DNA of 64,000 nt, from the IMG/VR virus record IMGVR_UViG_2534682157_000019. One strand, 5' to 3'. Shown here in pieces: positions 56,854 to 62,361 of the stretch. Position 1 is the stretch's first letter; each line of letters starts with the position of its first letter. Position numbers and translations under genes: made by a program. This DNA is from a virus. Lineage: Duplodnaviria > Heunggongvirae > Uroviricota > Caudoviricetes. The notes below the pieces were generated by a model. The model was not told where the DNA came from. It made no database searches and saw only the letters and a program-made list of their open reading frames with translations.

Positions 56854-57267
56854 AATTGTACAGTAAACCACCGTATGGACTTATTGAGTATGCTTATGGT
56901 GAAAAAGACTATTTATGTTAATCCTAATCGCGGACAAAACAGAAAAGTATCTGATAGAAGCCTTACATCTCGAGACAGAAGGAGGATAGCGAGATGGGAA
57001 AAGAGAATAGCATATGCATTAGAAAACGGTATAACACCTGGATTTAATGCTATAGATGACGGTCCGGAATATAAGATTAATGAAGACCCAATGGACAAAG
57101 TTGACAAAGCATTAGCAACACCATTTCCTCGAGATGTTGAAAAAATTAAAGATGAAAAATATGAGGATATAATGCACAGAGTTGTTAACCACGCTCACCA
57201 ACGAAATCCAAATAAAAAATGGTCATAACCCACTTCGGTAGATTTTATTGTTTGGACTAACAAAATT
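56807..57267 (+). other. AT-rich 461-bp insertion interrupting the N gene
   Basis: Lies between the N 5' part (through TATTAC at 56806) and the displaced N 3' fragment (from 57268); contains the 117-aa ORF. Confidence 0.6.
56875..57228 (+). CDS. Hypothetical basic protein (up to 117 aa) inside the N-gene insertion
   Basis: ORF fills most of the insertion; K/R/E/D-rich; start uncertain, no clear SD. Confidence 0.35.
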   Translation: MDLLSMLMVKKTIYVNPNRGQNRKVSDRSLTSRDRRRIARWEKRIAYALENGITPGFNAIDDGPEYKINEDPMDKVDKALATPFPRDVEKIKDEKYEDIMHRVVNHAHQRNPNKKWS

Positions 57268-57351
57268 TACTACCGCAAGCCACGCAGTGAAACGGGTGTG
57301 ACTTGTGTTGGTCGCCAGAAAATAAAATTAGGCAGCAAACCACTTATTTGA
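57268..57351 (+). pseudogene. N: Displaced 3' fragment of the N gene
   Basis: Encodes YYRKPRSETGVTCVGRQKIKLGSKPLI-stop, which parallels the lambda N C-terminus (...WYSKPGERGITCSGRQKIKGKSIPLI). Confidence 0.65.
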
Positions 57352-57359
57352 AGTGAGAT

Positions 57360-57446
57360 ATGGAAGAAGAATTTGAAGAGTTCGAAGAGCATCCACAGGA
57401 TGTGATGGAACAATACCAGGACTATCCGGATGACTACGACTATTGA
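57360..57446 (+). CDS. Possible small acidic peptide (28 aa)
   Basis: MEEEFEEFEEHPQDVMEQYQDYPDDYDY; weak SD. Confidence 0.2.
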   Translation: MEEEFEEFEEHPQDVMEQYQDYPDDYDY

Positions 57447-57580
57447 TACAAATCAATGGTGTGGGCAATACGAACTACGGCCATGATTGCCAGAGAACTT
57501 AGCAAACAGAAAAACAAGGCTGCCTGATGGTGGCCTTTATTTTTGGCATAAACAAATCAGTAAAAAAAGCGAGGTGATTG

Positions 57581-58294
57581 ATGACCACGCCTTCAGTTTT
57601 GCCGCAAAAATTATGGCGTCCGCTTGCAGAGATTAAAAACTTCGTTGAAAAAAAGCCTGACGGCGTTCGCCTTACGGAAGTTACTAAAAAAGTTAAGACA
57701 TTTGCCGAACTGTCAGGAAAGGAGAGAAACCAGCTCATAGATTTTATCGATAAACGGGAAAGCATCATTGTATTTAAGGTCAGAAAAGAAGGTTCTGGTA
57801 ACGGAGTAACCTTTTTCCGCCACAAAAAATATGGATATCCCAAGCGGGAAGGAAACGTCACAATCATTAAGGACCTTCAATCAAAATTATGTACCAGATG
57901 CGGGCAGACAAAATCAGTCGATGATTTTTATTCAGATGCCAGCAAACGTGACGGGAGAGCCATTTATTGCAAGAAGTGCGAATCTGCAATGAAACGCTCA
58001 CGCAGAGAATGCAACAAATTAATTCTGCAACAACAGGAACCTGAAATGAATAACCTAAAAGCAGTTTCACCTTCACCAGAAATACTCAGAAAGCAGGCGG
58101 AAGAATTGCTGAAAGCCGCCGAAATTGCGGAGAAAAAACGCCAGGAAGATGATGTATTCAACAAAAAACTTGCGCCCTTAAAACTTGAAATTCTTCAGGC
58201 CGCCGGAAAAATGCAGCTTAAACTGGACGAATTCATCGACTGTATGGATGAAATGAATAAAGCTGTTCAGAAGCTTAAAGAACTGACCGCCTGA
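57581..58294 (+). CDS. Hypothetical protein with zinc-ribbon (CxxC...CxxC) and C-terminal coiled coil (237 aa)
   Basis: ATG with GAGGTG SD; CTRCGQ...CKKCES motif; AT-rich codon usage. Confidence 0.5.
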   Translation: MTTPSVLPQKLWRPLAEIKNFVEKKPDGVRLTEVTKKVKTFAELSGKERNQLIDFIDKRESIIVFKVRKEGSGNGVTFFRHKKYGYPKREGNVTIIKDLQSKLCTRCGQTKSVDDFYSDASKRDGRAIYCKKCESAMKRSRRECNKLILQQQEPEMNNLKAVSPSPEILRKQAEELLKAAEIAEKKRQEDDVFNKKLAPLKLEILQAAGKMQLKLDEFIDCMDEMNKAVQKLKELTA

Positions 58295-58325
58295 TATTAA
58301 TAAATTGCAACTACCGGAGTTAACT

Positions 58326-59148: not shown

Positions 59149-59323
59149 AAGTGAATTTTGTGATGCGGTGAATGCGGCTCAGCGCACGCGGAACAGTTAA
59201 ACCGACAGGATGTCACGGAAAGTCATCGTCCCCTGACCCGGCGTTAATTGTTAACTGGTTAACGTCACCTGGAGGCACCAGGCACCGCATCAACAAAGTT
59301 CATTTGTGAAAATGGAGATAATT

Positions 59324-59545
59324 ATGATTGCTCATCACTTCAGAACTGATGAAATACCACGTCAGTGCGTGACACCTGGCGATTATGTTCTTCATGAAGG
59401 GCGGACATATATCGCTTCAGCAAACAATATTGAAAAGAGAAAACTCTATATTCGTAACTTCACGACAAAAACATGCATTACCGATTGCATGATTAAAGTC
59501 TTCCTCGGACGTGATGGTTTACCTGTAAAAGCGGAGTCATGGTGA
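59324..59545 (+). CDS. Hypothetical protein (73 aa)
   Basis: ATG with GGAGA SD; coupled to the next small ORF. Confidence 0.4.
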
Positions 59546-59715
59546 TAAATGTAAAAATAAAATGTGCCTACCATCTCTGCAATAAGGAAACCGAACAAAC
59601 CAAATCCGTTAAAAGTCATCTTCATTTTATGAAAGGCACAATCCCCGTAACCGAAGAGCGGCAATATTGCAGTAAGCAATGCGCCGAAAATGACCAGATG
59701 GCACATGAACTCTAA
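59539..59715 (+). CDS. Small Cys-rich protein (58 aa)
   Basis: [15 protein letters not shown]...CSKQC; start overlaps the upstream stop; not in the ORF track. Confidence 0.35.
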
Positions 59716-59795
59716 CCCCTCAACTTGATATTCAGACAATTCAGTTTCATGCCAGATATAACAGCACCATAGGCCTTAAAAAAAGGACATATAAA

Positions 59796-60260
59796 GTGAA
59801 AGAACTTAATCCTGACCAAATCTTTTCTGAAACCGAAAAGACAGCAGTAAATGAACTTAATGAAATTGCAAACCGCATCAGTAAAATATGCAAAGAATAC
59901 AAAATCGACTTTGTATTTTCTTTTTCAGTGCTTACAGAAGTTGGAAATAACGAATATAAAGACAGTCGTTTGGTTTCATGTGGGTTAAATGGCAAAACAC
60001 CAAGCCCATATATTCATGCCGCATGTGAAGTCGTCAGAAGCAACATTGAAGCACAACAAATCCATGAACTGGCGCTGGCTCTTGAGTTTGCAAGAGAAAA
60101 TCCTGAGTGCGACTGCCCCGAATGCCAGCACGAAAAGGAAAAACAACTAACAAAACAGCAAACCAGGCAACCTTCCACTGAAATAAAAATCCGGCAGCGC
60201 AGGCTACCGGATTTCTCCCTGCGTCACCGTATTCGGAGAAATCAGACAAAGGGCCGCTAA
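59796..60260 (+). CDS. Hypothetical protein (154 aa) with CDCPEC motif
   Basis: GTG start with AAGGA SD. Confidence 0.4.
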
Positions 60261-60288
60261 TTCTAATCCAGCCAGAGGTTTAAATACA

Positions 60289-62361
60289 ATGAGTGCTGAT
60301 AAACAGACTTTTGCACTACACTGCGAAGCAAAAAACGATAAAGTCAGAAAACGCCTTGACATCAAAGGCGGTTTTTTCTGGACCGAGGCCAGAAAACTTT
60401 CTGTCGCAGTTTCCCGCTGCATTGCAGCCATGGACGATGCAGGCTACGACGAGGATGATTTCAAAAAACCCGTTCGCGTAAATTTCCCCGTCGTGAATGA
60501 CCTTCCACCGGAAGGCGTGTTTGATACTGAATTCTGCAACCGCTATGAAAAAGGCGGTAACGATGGCATCACCATGATGGCTATCCCCTTCGATGACAAC
60601 ATCAACGGTGAAGATGCCACAACTGCTGGCGATGACAACGATAACCTGGACGGAACTATTCCGGATGATGTGGAGAAAAGCGAATCCCCGGACAGCGACG
60701 ATGACTGTTCTGAGTGTGAAATTCCCGTCGCCACTCTGAGCCTTACTCATCGCTTCCTTCACCTCTTCTTATTCAGCAAAGATGAAGATGGAAAATACCG
60801 GCATCATGCCACACCAGAACAACGCAATAACGTGATCCGTATGGAGATGGACACAGAGGACAGTTACCTTCAGAGCCTGCTTACTGCTGTGCGCGCCGCG
60901 CATCATGAACTGGATAAACTGACGAACCATCACCTTAGTCGCCTAGCTGAATCTGTAGGGAAAGCATTCCCCCACTCTGCAAATCATCGCATCAGCCCGG
61001 CTGAATTCGACAAGTTCATCTCCACCTGGATGAAAACAGACTATGTGGATCAGGGATTGCTGGCAAAAGAATGGCAGAAAGGAAATTATGTTACAGGCAT
61101 CACTCGTACGCCTTCCGGTGCTAACGCTGGCGGCGGAAATCTTACCGATCGTGGCGAAGGCTTTACCCACAATCAGGCATCACTGGCGCGAGACATTGCC
61201 ACTGGCGTTCTGGCCCGTTCAATAGATGTGGATATTTATAACCTGCACCCAGCACACGCAAAACACGTTGAAGAAATCGTGTCAGAGAATAAGCCGCCCT
61301 TTTCTGTTTTCCGTGACAAATTCATCGCCATGCCCGGTGGGCTGGATTATTCCCGCGCCATTGTGGTGGCTTCAGTGAAAGAAGCACCAATCGGCATTGA
61401 GGCTATCCCGGCGCGCGTGACTGAATATCTCAACAAAGTGTTGACCGAAACCGATCACTCTAACCCGGATCCGGAAATCGTGGAAATCGCCTGCGGTCGC
61501 TCATCAGCCCCAATGCCGCAGCGCGGAACAGCAGAAGAGATACATGACGATGAAGAAAAGCAGCAAACATCGGACGCAATGTCTAATGAACAGGCAGCGC
61601 CTGAATCAGTGGAAGAAATTCCAGTTAAACATAATGCGGACACGCAATCACTGGAAAATGTCTCATCTGTAGAAACGAAATACCAGGAACTGAGAGCAGA
61701 ACTCCATGAAGCCAGGAAAAACATTTCGCCCAAAAATCCTGTCGATGCAGACAAATTGCTGGCTGCCTCTCGTGGGGAGTTCGTTGAAGGCATCAGCGCC
61801 CCAACCGACCCGAAGTGGATTAAGGGGATCCAGGCTCGCGACACTGAGGACCAGAATCAGTCCAAAGTGGAACAAATTGCCCCAGAAGCGGGACAAAACA
61901 GCCCGGATACGCAACAAAACGGGCCAGAAGAGCAACAGCCAGCCCCAGTAGCGCAACCGGAGCTGGAAAAAAACTGCCGCGTCTGTGGTCAGACTGGCGG
62001 GGGTAACTGCCCTGACTGTAGTGCGGTAATGGGCGATAGCACTTACACAGAAACTTTTGGAGAAAATGACGCCGCTGATGGAGAAGACTCAGCACAAACT
62101 GAGGAGAAGATCATTCAGGAAAACTCTGTTGATGCCGCTCAGGAGGGCGAAACCGTTGTTCAGAACGAGCCAGGCAGTGATACGTCCGGCGATGACGCCA
62201 ATTCTGAGCCAGTAACTCTCGACTGGAAAAGACAGCTCGTGATTGCCGCCGTCTATGGTTTGTGCGCCAACCCCGCATGTATAGCCACAGCGCCAGCAAT
62301 CCCTGATATCGCCATCATGATTGCCAACAGGCTTGAAAATTTCGGAGGTGAGAAATCATGA
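60289..62361 (+). CDS. Large acidic early protein (690 aa), function unknown
   Basis: ATG with GAGG SD immediately upstream of gam; several D/E-rich low-complexity tracts and a CxxC...CxxC element ([15 protein letters not shown]). Confidence 0.6.

What the first reader, a model, noticed from the sequence alone, without database searches (positions are those of the whole stretch)
56875..62361. AT-rich accessory gene cluster in the early-left operon, including a 690-aa highly acidic protein
Between N and gam lie about 5.5 kb of low-GC DNA encoding at least eight proteins with no recognisable family, some on the opposite strand. The 690-aa protein at 60289-62361 has long D/E-rich tracts and sits directly upstream of Gam. 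This position in lambdoid phages typically holds host-takeover and anti-defence functions, and acidic proteins here can be DNA mimics.
Basis: inference. Interest (0 to 1): 0.55.

Follow-up and report, generated by a model that had tools for sequence, protein, structure and literature searches.

The report
Nuclease-less RecE relative beside Gam
The big acidic protein upstream of Gam is not an orphan: it is the N-terminal part of the RecE recombination nuclease with the nuclease replaced by a conserved 45-residue tail. Most of its neighbours are also known lambdoid genes, so the cluster is largely ordinary but contains one long-unexplained module.

Summary
The ORFs exist and 56875-60288 is modestly AT-rich (41.6% GC against 49.7% for the window). 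The 690-aa gene itself is 50.8% GC, and half of the "orphan" proteins have families.

The region is a mosaic lambdoid early-left operon: HK022-type Nun, lambda orf28, a ral pseudogene, four ORFs known only as PHROG families, an sRNA-like element, KilR, YdaE, then the 690-aa gene translationally coupled to gam-bet-exo.

The 690-aa protein is homologous to RecE residues ~43-579 but has no nuclease domain. It ends in an almost invariant ~45-aa helical hairpin. Across the family, this N-terminal module is joined to one of three endings: a PD-(D/E)XK nuclease, a DnaQ-like exonuclease, or this tail. Tail and RecE-type nuclease never co-occur (181 against 84 proteins, 0 with both). The gene is under purifying selection (omega 0.1-0.2 in folded parts and tail).

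The acidity lies in disordered, weakly constrained linkers shared with true RecE nucleases, so a DNA-mimic reading is not supported. The function is still unknown. My best guess is a non-catalytic DNA-end or recombination accessory factor that docks a partner through the tail.

A side finding is a widespread phage sRNA family carrying the seed of processed RprA.

The parts
56584..56853 (+). Antiterminator N, phage-21/933W type. It lies just outside the finding and is listed for context.
   Evidence: phrog_271 E 6.3e-25. The stretch 56400-57362 is 98.4% identical to phage PA28, where the N gene start maps to window 56584.
56896..57228 (+). nun: an HK022-type Nun transcription-termination and exclusion factor (110 codons; the mechanical ORF starts at 56875).
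   Evidence: PDB 6alg_N 'Transcription termination factor nun', E 2.5e-68, full length 1-109, about 94% identical, with the ARM (SRDRRRIARWEKRIAY) and the C-terminal KKWS intact. phrog_5632 E 2.2e-69. Phage mEp235 annotates Nun next to N in the homologous DNA.
57360..57446 (+). Homolog of lambda orf28, intact (28 aa).
   Evidence: DNA alignment with lambda 34.2-34.4 kb; ORF listed.
57429..57527 (+). ral pseudogene. This is the lambda restriction-alleviation gene with a 103-nt internal deletion that shifts the frame.
   Evidence: Alignment A1 with lambda ral: both ends are conserved at 91-93%, and alignment columns 176-278 are missing in the window. Only an 18-codon N-terminal stub and a 23-aa C-terminal ORF remain.
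57581..58294 (+). 237-aa protein of unknown function (phrog_2539). It has a central CxxC-x22-CxxC zinc ribbon (aa ~100-145) and a charged, probably coiled-coil C-terminus. In the closest phages it is the first gene after N.
   Evidence: phrog_2539 E 1e-129. Weaker matches are confined to the ribbon: EndoVII, HNH and Lar-like families. No Pfam, NCBIfam, PADLOC or PDB hit. Not related to Lar (E 0.76) or Ral. Annotated as hypothetical in PQ600364, PV340546 and NC_025434.
58326..58685 (+). 119-aa protein of unknown function (phrog_2982).
   Evidence: phrog_2982 E 9.3e-77. No other family or PDB hit.
58654..58863 (-). 69-aa opposite-strand ORF of unknown function (phrog_2605).
   Evidence: phrog_2605 E 4.9e-45, aligned over residues 31-99 of the mechanical ORF. 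Called as a 68-aa minus-strand gene in a related prophage, L007 4537-4743.
59086..59146 (+). sRNA-like element: a 16-nt seed identical to the core of host RprA, followed by a DicF-type Rho-independent terminator. It sits in the same slot as dicF in the Qin prophage.
   Evidence: Rfam DicF 35.6 bits (gathering score 48), E 3.5e-6; Rfam RprA 33.5 bits (gathering score 70). 14-bp hairpin plus T-run. Alignment with K-12 RprA and DicF. Flanks homologous to the dicF flanks, and compensatory stem changes in relatives. The family has more than 120 copies in viral contigs. There are 71 distinct seed-to-terminator variants, median hairpin dG -15.6, z -4.
59306..59545 (+). kilR: an FtsZ-directed cell-division inhibitor. 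The 73-aa form starts at 59324.
   Evidence: 96% identical to Rac-SA53 KilR. NF008465 at 155.6 bits against a cut-off of 92. phrog_294.
59539..59715 (+). ydaE: a small zinc-binding protein of the Rac YdaE family (function unknown).
   Evidence: 67% identical to Rac-SA53 YdaE. NF041288 at 89.6 bits against a cut-off of 35. Pfam RPAP2_Rtr1 at 33.4 bits against a cut-off of 33.
59796..60260 (+). phrog_2016 protein of unknown function in the position of racC. Relatives are 128 aa; here it is 154 aa because a 1-nt deletion in an A-run changes the C-terminus.
   Evidence: phrog_2016 E 5.9e-67 over residues 1-125. No similarity to RacC. The frameshift relative to PQ600364 is shown.
60289..62361 (+). 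Nuclease-less RecE-N / YdfE-type ('RecE-2') protein, 690 aa. Domains: alpha/beta domain aa 1-100 (60289-60588); helical core aa 142-412 (60712-61524); disordered acidic linker aa 413-644 (61525-62220), containing a 4-Cys ribbon at aa 563-577 (61975-62019).
   Evidence: Family assignment: PF06630; NF007259 positions 1-598 of 877, 730.6 bits against a cut-off of 1269; phrog_607; 59% identical to RecE aa 43-579. No sequence match in the PDB, consistent with no nuclease domain: the review places the 2009 RecE crystal structure in the C-terminal nuclease domain only (PMC11611040). Structure: AF2 model on 129 sequences. Selection: dN/dS 0.22-0.39. Distribution: more than 100 clusters of 680-700 aa.
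62221..62361 (+). C-terminal tail of the 690-aa protein (aa 645-690): a conserved helix-turn-helix hairpin, [44 protein letters not shown]. It replaces the nuclease domain.
   Evidence: Almost invariant in alignments A2 and A3. Family motif defined. Omega 0.11-0.18 with dS up to 1.6. Tail profile: 181 proteins hit, none with a nuclease domain, and the tail always ends within 12 residues of the C-terminus. Helices 646-660 and 662-683, pLDDT 62-80.
62358..62654 (+). gam (98-aa form), translationally coupled to the gene above. bet follows at 62660-63445.
   Evidence: Pfam PF06064 E 4.8e-65. About 90% DNA identity to lambda and PA28 begins at 62379.

Best explanation
**What the region is.** It is an ordinary mosaic lambdoid early-left (pL) accessory region. 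Its one real puzzle is the 690-aa gene.

**What the 690-aa protein is.** It belongs to an old nuclease-less branch of the RecE family. That branch is the YdfE type, and is probably what a 2025 paper called 'RecE-2'. The protein keeps the two folded N-terminal domains and the long acidic disordered linker of RecE. Where RecE has its PD-(D/E)XK nuclease domain, this protein has a conserved ~45-residue helical hairpin.

**Proposed mechanism (inferred, not shown).** The RecE-N module is a non-catalytic platform that acts on DNA ends or recombination intermediates. In classic RecE it is covalently joined to a 5'-3' exonuclease, and in other phages to a DnaQ-like 3'-5' exonuclease. In this branch the tail takes the place of the fused enzyme, either by docking a separately encoded partner or by oligomerising. 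In this phage the candidate partners are the products of the co-translated gam-bet-exo module. In phages without Red genes, the partner would be a host protein. The expected phenotype is that of full-length RecE compared with truncated RecE: better recombination or repair between linear DNA ends during lytic growth.

**Shown:** homology, absence of the nuclease, the tail motif and its mutual exclusivity with nucleases, purifying selection, and gene context.

**Inferred:** every functional step.
For: **Homology to RecE-N**
- PF06630 above its gathering score.
- NF007259 profile positions 1-598 of 877.
- 59% identity to Rac-SA53 RecE aa 43-579, and about 90% in the core.
- DNA homology to Rac recE over 60990-62036; lambda red homology starts at 62379.

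**No nuclease domain**
- No match beyond profile position 598 of NF007259.
- No PDB sequence hit, although the RecE nuclease domain has been crystallised (PMC11611040).
- No local match to the RecE C-terminal domain.

**Not a wreck**
- More than 100 clusters (90% identity) of 680-700 aa at 76-100% identity.
- Omega 0.22-0.39 overall and 0.1-0.2 in the folded parts and the tail, with dS up to 1.6.

**The tail is a module**
- It is conserved down to about 25% overall identity.
- 181 proteins carry the tail, 84 carry the nuclease, and none carry both.
- AF2 models it as a helical hairpin.
- In one prophage (L014) it is encoded as a separate 54-aa ORF directly after a 638-aa YdfE protein.

**Interchangeable C-termini**
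- PF12684, PF16473, or the tail.

**Context**
- 72 of 72 loci with a tail-bearing gene at least ~48% identical, and with sequence downstream, have gam directly after it. Most have gam-bet-exo.

**Literature**
- The RecE N-terminus has no known function, but full-length RecE improves linear-linear recombination (PMC11611040, PMC11610958).
- Nuclease-less 'RecE-2' proteins have been noted in lambdoid early-left operons, role unknown (PMC12315714).
Against: - Distant tail-bearing relatives in Citrobacter, Lelliottia, Buttiauxella, Cedecea and Enterobacter have no recognisable gam, bet or exo. They also have no conserved downstream neighbour. So the tail cannot have a phage Red protein as its universal partner, and the protein may work independently of phage recombinases.
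- Eight loci have gam but no bet or exo.
- The link between the RecE N-terminus and linear-linear recombination comes from secondary citations only. I could not read Fu et al. 2012.
Confidence: 0.45

Rival explanations
1. Anti-defence or anti-nuclease factor. The protein inhibits or redirects a host nuclease or defence system. It would do so either through its acidic linker acting as a flexible nucleic-acid mimic, or through the tail binding a host protein. It would work alongside Gam, and not as a recombination accessory.
For: - Early-left operon position next to known exclusion and host-takeover genes.
- gam, the anti-RecBCD gene, follows it in 72 of 72 close loci, including eight that lack bet and exo.
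- Distant relatives occur without any phage recombinase, so the protein can act without one.
- A strongly acidic linker of about 200 aa is conserved in composition across the family.
- ral is dead in this phage, so other counter-defence functions might be favoured.
Against: - No similarity to any protein of known anti-defence function in Pfam, PHROGs, NCBIfam or the PDB. PADLOC, which covers defence systems rather than anti-defence proteins, also gave nothing.
- The acidic segments are predicted disordered and evolve almost neutrally (omega 0.6-0.8).
- The same linker is present in bona fide RecE nucleases and DnaQ fusions, so acidity says nothing specific about this branch.
- The module's only reported phenotype concerns recombination (PMC11611040).
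Confidence: 0.25
2. Dedicated partner of Gam. The tail, or the whole protein, binds Gam or RecBCD, and the two genes form one functional unit in the E. coli, Shigella and Salmonella lineage.
For: - Stop/start overlap (ATGA) with gam.
- gam follows directly in 72 of 72 loci, even where bet and exo are replaced by a Sak4-like ATPase or are absent.
- The Rac-like and lambda-like DNA segments flank a 340-nt stretch (62037-62378) that encodes the tail and the first codons of gam. These therefore travel together.
Against: - Tail-bearing relatives at 28-45% identity have the same tail motif but no gam.
- Most lambdoid phages carry gam without this gene: 399 phage records match parts of the query, but only 6 carry the tail.
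- Adjacency may simply reflect shared ancestry of one clade.
Confidence: 0.15
3. Decaying remnant: a recE gene that lost its nuclease end by illegitimate recombination with a lambda red module and is now non-functional.
For: - The mosaic DNA junctions.
- The NCBIfam equivalog score is below its cut-off.
- Other decay nearby: the ral pseudogene and a frameshifted neighbouring ORF.
Against: - The ORF is intact at 680-700 aa in more than 100 clusters down to 76% identity.
- Omega 0.1-0.2 in the folded domains and the tail, with dS up to 1.6.
- The same tail is found in relatives only about 25% identical, from five other genera.
- The tail is never found together with a nuclease domain.
Confidence: 0.03

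Closest known systems
RecE (exodeoxyribonuclease VIII) of the Rac prophage
   Same: - The N-terminal ~600 residues are homologous (59% identity overall, about 90% in aa 270-410), including the acidic disordered linker and the 4-Cys ribbon.
- Same operon position downstream of kilR-ydaE.
   Different: - Lacks the C-terminal PD-(D/E)XK nuclease domain entirely and ends in a 45-aa helical hairpin.
- Followed by gam-bet-exo and not by recT.
- Scores 730.6 bits against the 1269-bit equivalog cut-off.
- Database names such as 'RecE family exodeoxyribonuclease' are therefore misleading for it.
YdfE of the Qin prophage and the 'RecE-2' proteins of Genome Res 2025 (PMC12315714)
   Same: - Nuclease-less RecE relatives encoded late in the lambdoid early-left operon, downstream of a cell-division inhibitor (dicB or kilR).
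- Distant tail-bearing relatives of the window protein carry the newer Pfam families YdfE_N and YdfE_C.
- Function unknown.
   Different: - The window protein and its close relatives are recorded only with PF06630 in the precomputed Pfam data.
- I could not confirm that the phages in that paper's 'RecE-2' set include this clade, because its supplements are not held.
- The tail motif and its mutual exclusivity with nucleases are not mentioned in the passages I read.
RecE-N fused to a DnaQ-like 3'-5' exonuclease (PF06630 + PF16473)
   Same: Same N-terminal module and acidic linker.
   Different: Carries a different catalytic C-terminus of opposite polarity. The window protein has no catalytic domain.
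DNA-mimic anti-restriction or anti-nuclease proteins (Ocr, ArdA, lambda Gam)
   Same: Phage early protein, strongly acidic, encoded beside Gam.
   Different: - No sequence or fold similarity.
- The acidity lies in disordered, poorly conserved linkers and not on a rigid folded surface.
HK022 Nun (for the 56896-57228 gene)
   Same: About 94% identical over the full length to the Nun chain of PDB 6ALG, including the arginine-rich motif and the C-terminal KKWS.
   Different: Here it sits directly downstream of a phage-21-type N gene, as in mEp235. In HK022, to my knowledge, nun occupies the place of N (for mEp235).
DicF and RprA small RNAs (for the 59086-59146 element)
   Same: - Same genomic slot and the same type of terminator hairpin as DicF.
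- Same 16-nt single-stranded core as RprA. The layout of seed plus terminator corresponds to the 47-nt processed RprA that is active in vivo.
   Different: - Below the Rfam gathering score for both families (35.6 against 48; 33.5 against 70).
- The 5' part differs from DicF.
- It is phage-borne, whereas rprA is a core gene.

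Membership tests
RecE / exodeoxyribonuclease VIII (NCBIfam NF007259 equivalog) | N-terminal Exonuc_VIII region (Pfam PF06630) | tested here: met
   47.7 bits against a gathering score of 25, aa 55-197. Aligned to RecE aa 43-579 at 59% identity.
RecE / exodeoxyribonuclease VIII (NCBIfam NF007259 equivalog) | C-terminal PD-(D/E)XK 5'-3' exonuclease domain (PF12684; the crystallised RecE domain) | tested here: not met
   The profile match stops at position 598 of 877. No PDB sequence hit. No local phmmer hit to the RecE C-terminal domain. Only PF06630 is recorded for this protein and its close relatives.
RecE / exodeoxyribonuclease VIII (NCBIfam NF007259 equivalog) | Whole-protein score above the curated equivalog cut-off | tested here: not met
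   730.6 bits against a cut-off of 1269.
RecE / exodeoxyribonuclease VIII (NCBIfam NF007259 equivalog) | Paired with a downstream recT annealase gene | tested here: not met
   Followed by gam and a lambda-type bet. Rac-SA53 has recE-recT.
Nuclease-less RecE-N / YdfE-type ('RecE-2') | Homologous RecE-N core without any nuclease domain | tested here: met
   The class is described in PMC12315714.
Nuclease-less RecE-N / YdfE-type ('RecE-2') | C-terminal tail motif QQL-T-x-AAL-QG-[LM]-CANPA ... [IL]P-x-MA at the extreme C-terminus (a feature defined here) | tested here: met
   Window variant: [17 protein letters not shown]...IPDIAIMIA. Motif across 22 diverse representatives. HMM hits in 181 proteins, always within 12 residues of the C-terminus.
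Nuclease-less RecE-N / YdfE-type ('RecE-2') | Matches to Pfam YdfE_N (PF27430) and YdfE_C (PF27432) | tested here: inconclusive
   The local Pfam copy lacks these models, since KilR PF27398 was also not found. In the precomputed data the distant tail-bearing relatives carry them, but the window's close relatives carry only PF06630.
Nuclease-less RecE-N / YdfE-type ('RecE-2') | Position late in the early-left operon, between a cell-division inhibitor gene and the recombination or xis-int genes | tested here: met
   kilR-ydaE-orf-recE-N-gam-bet-exo here, and the same arrangement in about 100 related loci.
DNA-mimic anti-restriction / anti-nuclease proteins (Ocr, ArdA, Gam-like) | Rigid, folded, acidic surface that imitates DNA | tested here: not met
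   The acidic tracts (aa 101-141 and 413-644) have pLDDT below 50 and omega 0.6-0.8. The folded domains are only mildly acidic: net -2 and -7.
DNA-mimic anti-restriction / anti-nuclease proteins (Ocr, ArdA, Gam-like) | Sequence or fold similarity to a known member | tested here: not met
DNA-mimic anti-restriction / anti-nuclease proteins (Ocr, ArdA, Gam-like) | Relief of restriction or of nuclease attack in vivo | not testable with these tools
   Requires plating and nuclease assays.
Nun transcription termination factor (HK022) | Full-length similarity including the N-terminal arginine-rich boxB-binding motif and the C-terminal Trp-containing KKWS | tested here: met
   6alg_N E 2.5e-68 over residues 1-109; 1hji_B ARM peptide E 1.4e-9.
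KilR FtsZ inhibitor | NCBIfam NF008465 above its cut-off | tested here: met
   155.6 bits against 92. 96% identical to Rac-SA53 KilR.
DicF sRNA (Rfam RF00039) | Score at or above the Rfam gathering score | tested here: not met
   35.6 bits against 48. The hairpin matches, but the 5' single-stranded part differs.
RprA sRNA (Rfam RF00034) | Score at or above the Rfam gathering score | tested here: not met
   33.5 bits against 70. Only the 16-nt core ATTGCTGTGTGTAGTC and some upstream bases are shared.

The most novel reading that the evidence does not exclude
The RecE-N/YdfE module is a portable targeting platform for DNA ends or replication and recombination intermediates. Phages equip it with interchangeable effectors: a 5'-3' nuclease, a 3'-5' nuclease, or, through a newly defined 45-residue docking hairpin, a separately encoded phage or host enzyme. 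If so, the tail would be a new short protein-protein interaction module. Identifying its partner would finally show what the RecE N-terminus does. That region has been unexplained since RecE was dissected, and it is exploited empirically in full-length RecET direct cloning. A separate possibility concerns the element at 59086-59146: it would represent a large family of phage sRNAs that mimic processed RprA and so tap into the host RprA regulon during induction.
Probability: 0.25. Interest if true: 0.65.

Novelty: new variant of a known kind. Interest (0 to 1): 0.45.

Why it matters
- Full-length RecE is a standard tool for direct cloning by linear-linear recombination, yet recent reviews still call its ~600-residue N-terminus 'of unknown function'.
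- This analysis shows that the same module exists naturally without any nuclease. That form is under purifying selection, is widespread in E. coli and Shigella prophages (including Stx phages and O104:H4), and carries a conserved C-terminal hairpin that is mutually exclusive with two kinds of nuclease domain.
- This makes the question testable: find what the hairpin binds, and check whether the protein improves Red recombination.
- It also corrects a systematic annotation error, since these proteins are named exodeoxyribonucleases.
- The rest of the cluster is ordinary lambdoid mosaic content.
- The RprA-seeded sRNA family, if real, would be a clear example of a phage copying the active part of a core host regulator.

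Tried and rejected
1. **AF2 on a shallow alignment** (19 close relatives): mean pLDDT 33, unusable. A 129-sequence alignment built from a second homology search gave confident domains.
3. **Tail as a membrane anchor.** The window tail reaches a Kyte-Doolittle 19-residue mean of 1.75, but most relatives reach only 0.5-1.3 and conserve polar residues (QQ, QG, NP, DD). Rejected.
4. **Tail as a domain borrowed from another protein family.** No Pfam match. Among phages it occurs only in this gene. A profile search returned only small fragments or split ORFs.
5. **A universal downstream partner for the tail.** gam is constant only in the close clade. Distant loci have variable small ORFs and then xis and int.
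6. **The 237-aa zinc-ribbon protein as a replacement for Ral or Lar.** Only the CxxC...CxxC spacing is shared with Lar (E 0.76), and nothing is shared with Ral. PADLOC found nothing for any ORF.
7. **The ORF in the racC position as RacC.** No similarity.
8. **Literature.** Fu et al. 2012 could not be read, and the supplements of PMC12315714 are not held. My first literature query matched 'receptor' and was wasted. No paper was found describing a phage RprA-like sRNA, but absence from this library does not prove novelty.

Full report
**1. Observation**

The window from about 53 to 64 kb is a lambdoid immunity and early-left region. In order it holds O, cII, cro, cI, N, the flagged cluster, and then gam and bet.

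The 690-aa ORF runs from 60289 to 62361, and its stop overlaps the gam start (ATGA). The base composition is only partly as described:
- 56875-60288 is 41.6% GC, against 49.7% for the window.
- The 690-aa gene is 50.8% GC, like the red genes that follow it.

The protein is acidic: pI 4.58, 124 D/E against 65 K/R. The acidic residues cluster at aa 91-150, 413-460 and 590-642.

**2. What the genes are**

The statement that the proteins have no recognisable family is wrong for half of them.
- 56896-57228 encodes Nun. It is about 94% identical over its full length to the Nun chain of PDB 6ALG and keeps the arginine-rich motif and the C-terminal KKWS (phrog_5632). Phage mEp235 annotates Nun beside N in homologous DNA.
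- 57335-57555 is lambda DNA. It holds an intact orf28 and a ral gene destroyed by a 103-nt internal deletion.
- 59306-59545 is KilR: 96% identical to Rac-SA53 KilR, and NF008465 is above its cut-off.
- 59539-59715 is YdaE.
- Four ORFs belong only to PHROG families of unknown function. They are 57581-58294, 58326-58685, 58654-58863 on the minus strand, and 59796-60260. None has a Pfam, NCBIfam, PADLOC or PDB match.
- The 237-aa protein has a generic CxxC-x22-CxxC ribbon but is not related to Lar or Ral.
- The ORF at 59796-60260 has a C-terminus altered by a 1-nt deletion in an A-run, compared with the 99.8% identical phage phiSTEC1589-Stx1c.

At the DNA level the region is a mosaic:
- the N-nun segment resembles PA28, mEp235 and HK022;
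- a short segment is lambda-like (orf28, ral);
- one block is shared with phiSTEC1589-Stx1c, PhiR5_2, POCJ13 and 75/02 Stx;
- the kilR-ydaE-recE segment is Rac-like;
- the red module is lambda-like.

**3. The 690-aa protein is a nuclease-less RecE relative**

- It passes the Pfam gathering score for Exonuc_VIII.
- It matches positions 1-598 of the 877-position NCBIfam RecE equivalog, but scores 730.6 bits against a cut-off of 1269.
- It aligns with residues 43-579 of the 1048-aa Rac-SA53 RecE at 59% identity, rising to about 90% in the core.
- Nothing aligns with the nuclease domain. [quoted passage not shown]
- DNA similarity to Rac recE ends at 62036, and similarity to lambda red begins at 62379.

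**4. It is a maintained gene, not a remnant**

- A homology search returned more than 100 clusters (90% identity) of 680-700 aa. They cover the full query at 76-100% identity and carry only PF06630.
- About 80 of 5,426 complete E. coli genomes carry the tail-gam junction at high nucleotide identity, O104:H4 among them.
- Pairwise dN/dS between six orthologs is 0.22-0.39.
- By segment, aa 1-90, 151-412, 461-520 and 643-690 give 0.1-0.2, with dS up to 1.6. The acidic segments give 0.6-0.8.

**5. The tail**

In alignments of nuclease-less members, the last ~47 residues are almost invariant, while the preceding linker is highly variable. The tail starts where the RecE nuclease domain would start.

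An exhaustive search of 1.84 billion representatives found only 204 relatives of the protein. Of the 84 long ones, 22 end in a RecE-type nuclease domain and 22 end in the tail. None has both.

The motif across members that are only about 25% identical overall is L-T-[YWF]-x-QQL-T-[IVL]-AAL-QG-[LM]-CANPA-x(6-7)-[DE][DE]-[IL]-P-x-MA-x2-[LI]-A.
- Its hydrophobicity is below membrane-helix level in most members, and specific polar residues are conserved. It is therefore not a membrane anchor.
The nuclease domain hits 84. None has both.
- The motif has no Pfam family.
- Among phage records it occurs only in this gene.
- In one Enterobacter prophage it is a separate 54-aa ORF immediately after a 638-aa YdfE_N/YdfE_C protein.

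**6. Three architectures**

A search seeded with the distant tail-bearing members, read together with precomputed Pfam domains, shows the RecE-N module in three forms:
- with PF12684, the PD-(D/E)XK nuclease (classic RecE, about 1000-1150 aa);
- with PF16473, a DnaQ-like 3'-5' exonuclease (about 745-860 aa);
- with only the tail (about 490-740 aa; many are annotated YdfE_N plus YdfE_C).

The window protein belongs to the third form. A 2025 survey of lambdoid recombination modules mentions 'RecE-2' proteins that are related to RecE but lack a nuclease domain. It leaves their role open (PMC12315714).

**7. Structure**

With a 129-sequence alignment, AF2 gave the following:
- a confident alpha/beta domain at aa 1-100;
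- a confident, mainly helical domain at aa 142-412;
- a helical hairpin for the tail (aa 646-683, pLDDT 62-80);
- disorder at aa 101-141 and 413-644.

**8. Context**

I scanned about 100 loci.
- Every tail-bearing gene at least ~48% identical to the query, and with sequence downstream, is followed directly by gam (72 of 72).
- Most of these continue with bet and exo.
- Eight have gam with a Sak4-like ATPase or nothing further.
- Relatives at 28-45% identity, from Citrobacter, Lelliottia, Buttiauxella, Cedecea and Enterobacter, have no recognisable Red genes. They are followed by variable small ORFs and then xis and int.

**9. Interpretation**

The shown facts are homology, loss of the nuclease, a conserved tail that is exclusive of nucleases, selection, and operon position. 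The function is inferred.

Two observations guide the inference. The module is found joined to exonucleases of either polarity. Its only reported phenotype is improved linear-linear recombination by full-length RecE (PMC11611040, PMC11610958). I therefore favour a non-catalytic role at DNA ends or recombination intermediates, with the tail docking a separately encoded partner or mediating oligomerisation.

The absence of Red genes in distant relatives means any universal partner would have to be a host protein. This keeps an anti-nuclease or anti-defence role alive as the main rival.

The specific DNA-mimic argument from acidity is weak. The acidic parts are disordered, weakly constrained, and shared with true nucleases.

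**10. Side finding**

Between the minus-strand ORF and kilR lies an sRNA-like element (59086-59146).
- It has a 14-bp terminator hairpin of the DicF type. Its flanks are homologous to those of dicF in Qin, and relatives show compensatory stem changes.
- Its single-stranded 5' part, ATTGCTGTGTGTAGTC, is identical to the core of host RprA.
- That 16-mer occurs in more than 120 viral contigs. It has unrelated 5' flanks and 71 distinct seed-to-terminator variants (35 different stem arms; median hairpin dG -15.6 kcal/mol; z about -4).
- 54 of the 140 copies have a KilR homolog within 1.2 kb downstream.
- The layout matches the 47-nt processed RprA, which is active in vivo (PMC9262595).
- Both Rfam matches are below their gathering scores. 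ViennaRNA also predicts a weak internal hairpin within the seed, so it is not cleanly unpaired in the MFE fold.
- I found no paper describing it.

**11. Verdict**

The cluster is mostly ordinary lambdoid accessory content and can be annotated. The 690-aa protein is a new variant of a known but functionally unexplained kind.

Noticed in passing
window 59086-59146 (+): An sRNA-like element with the 16-nt core of host RprA (ATTGCTGTGTGTAGTC) followed by a DicF-type terminator, in the dicF slot upstream of kilR. The seed is invariant in more than 120 viral contigs, while the flanks and the hairpins vary widely (71 variants). The layout equals processed 47-nt RprA. It is below the Rfam gathering scores for both DicF and RprA, and I found no paper describing it.
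   Followed up: partly
window 57335-57555: Lambda-derived DNA holding an intact orf28 (57360-57446) and a ral gene inactivated by a 103-nt internal deletion. This phage has therefore lost the classical restriction-alleviation function.
   Followed up: yes
window 59796-60260: The phrog_2016 ORF is 154 aa here and 128 aa in the 99.8% identical phage PQ600364. The cause is a 1-nt deletion in an A-run near 60143 that changes and extends the C-terminus.
   Followed up: yes
window 56030-56323 (-): A minus-strand ORF between cI and N, matching phrog_3946 (unknown function, about 65 aa). It is outside the finding and was not examined further.
   Followed up: no
L003 (phage PA28) 2001-2964, matching window 56400-57362: PA28 is 98.4% identical across N-nun. 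It annotates a longer N (112 aa) and only a 138-nt 'hypothetical' ORF over the 3' end of nun. This suggests an indel that fuses or disrupts N and nun there, or a mis-annotation.
   Followed up: no
L001 (PQ600364) 4757-4996 and public records generally: Annotation errors. KilR is labelled 'cell division protein FtsZ' in PQ600364. The nuclease-less proteins are named 'exodeoxyribonuclease VIII', 'RecE family exodeoxyribonuclease' or 'exonuclease VII' throughout the databases, although they lack the nuclease domain.
   Followed up: yes
L014 4056-6165 (Enterobacter asburiae prophage): The conserved tail is encoded as a separate 54-aa ORF 28 nt after a 638-aa YdfE_N/YdfE_C protein. This is either a natural split of the module or a recent mutation. 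The prophage has no gam, bet or exo.
   Followed up: partly
proteins P0311, P0314, P0345 and P0349 among others: The RecE-N module fused to a DnaQ-like 3'-5' exonuclease domain (PF16473), about 745-860 aa, in Citrobacter, Atlantibacter, Enterobacter and Phytobacter prophages.
   Followed up: partly
L064, L069, L071, L076, L085 (viral contigs), about 280 nt downstream of the tail-bearing gene: In these loci gam is followed by a protein of about 365 aa with a Walker-A-like motif (GFAGDGKT) in place of bet and exo. I read it as a Sak4-like ATPase from the sequence alone.
   Followed up: no
window 59131-59338 (+): A sub-threshold Rfam match to STnc100 (30.8 bits against 47). It spans the region from the sRNA terminator to the start of kilR.
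   Followed up: no
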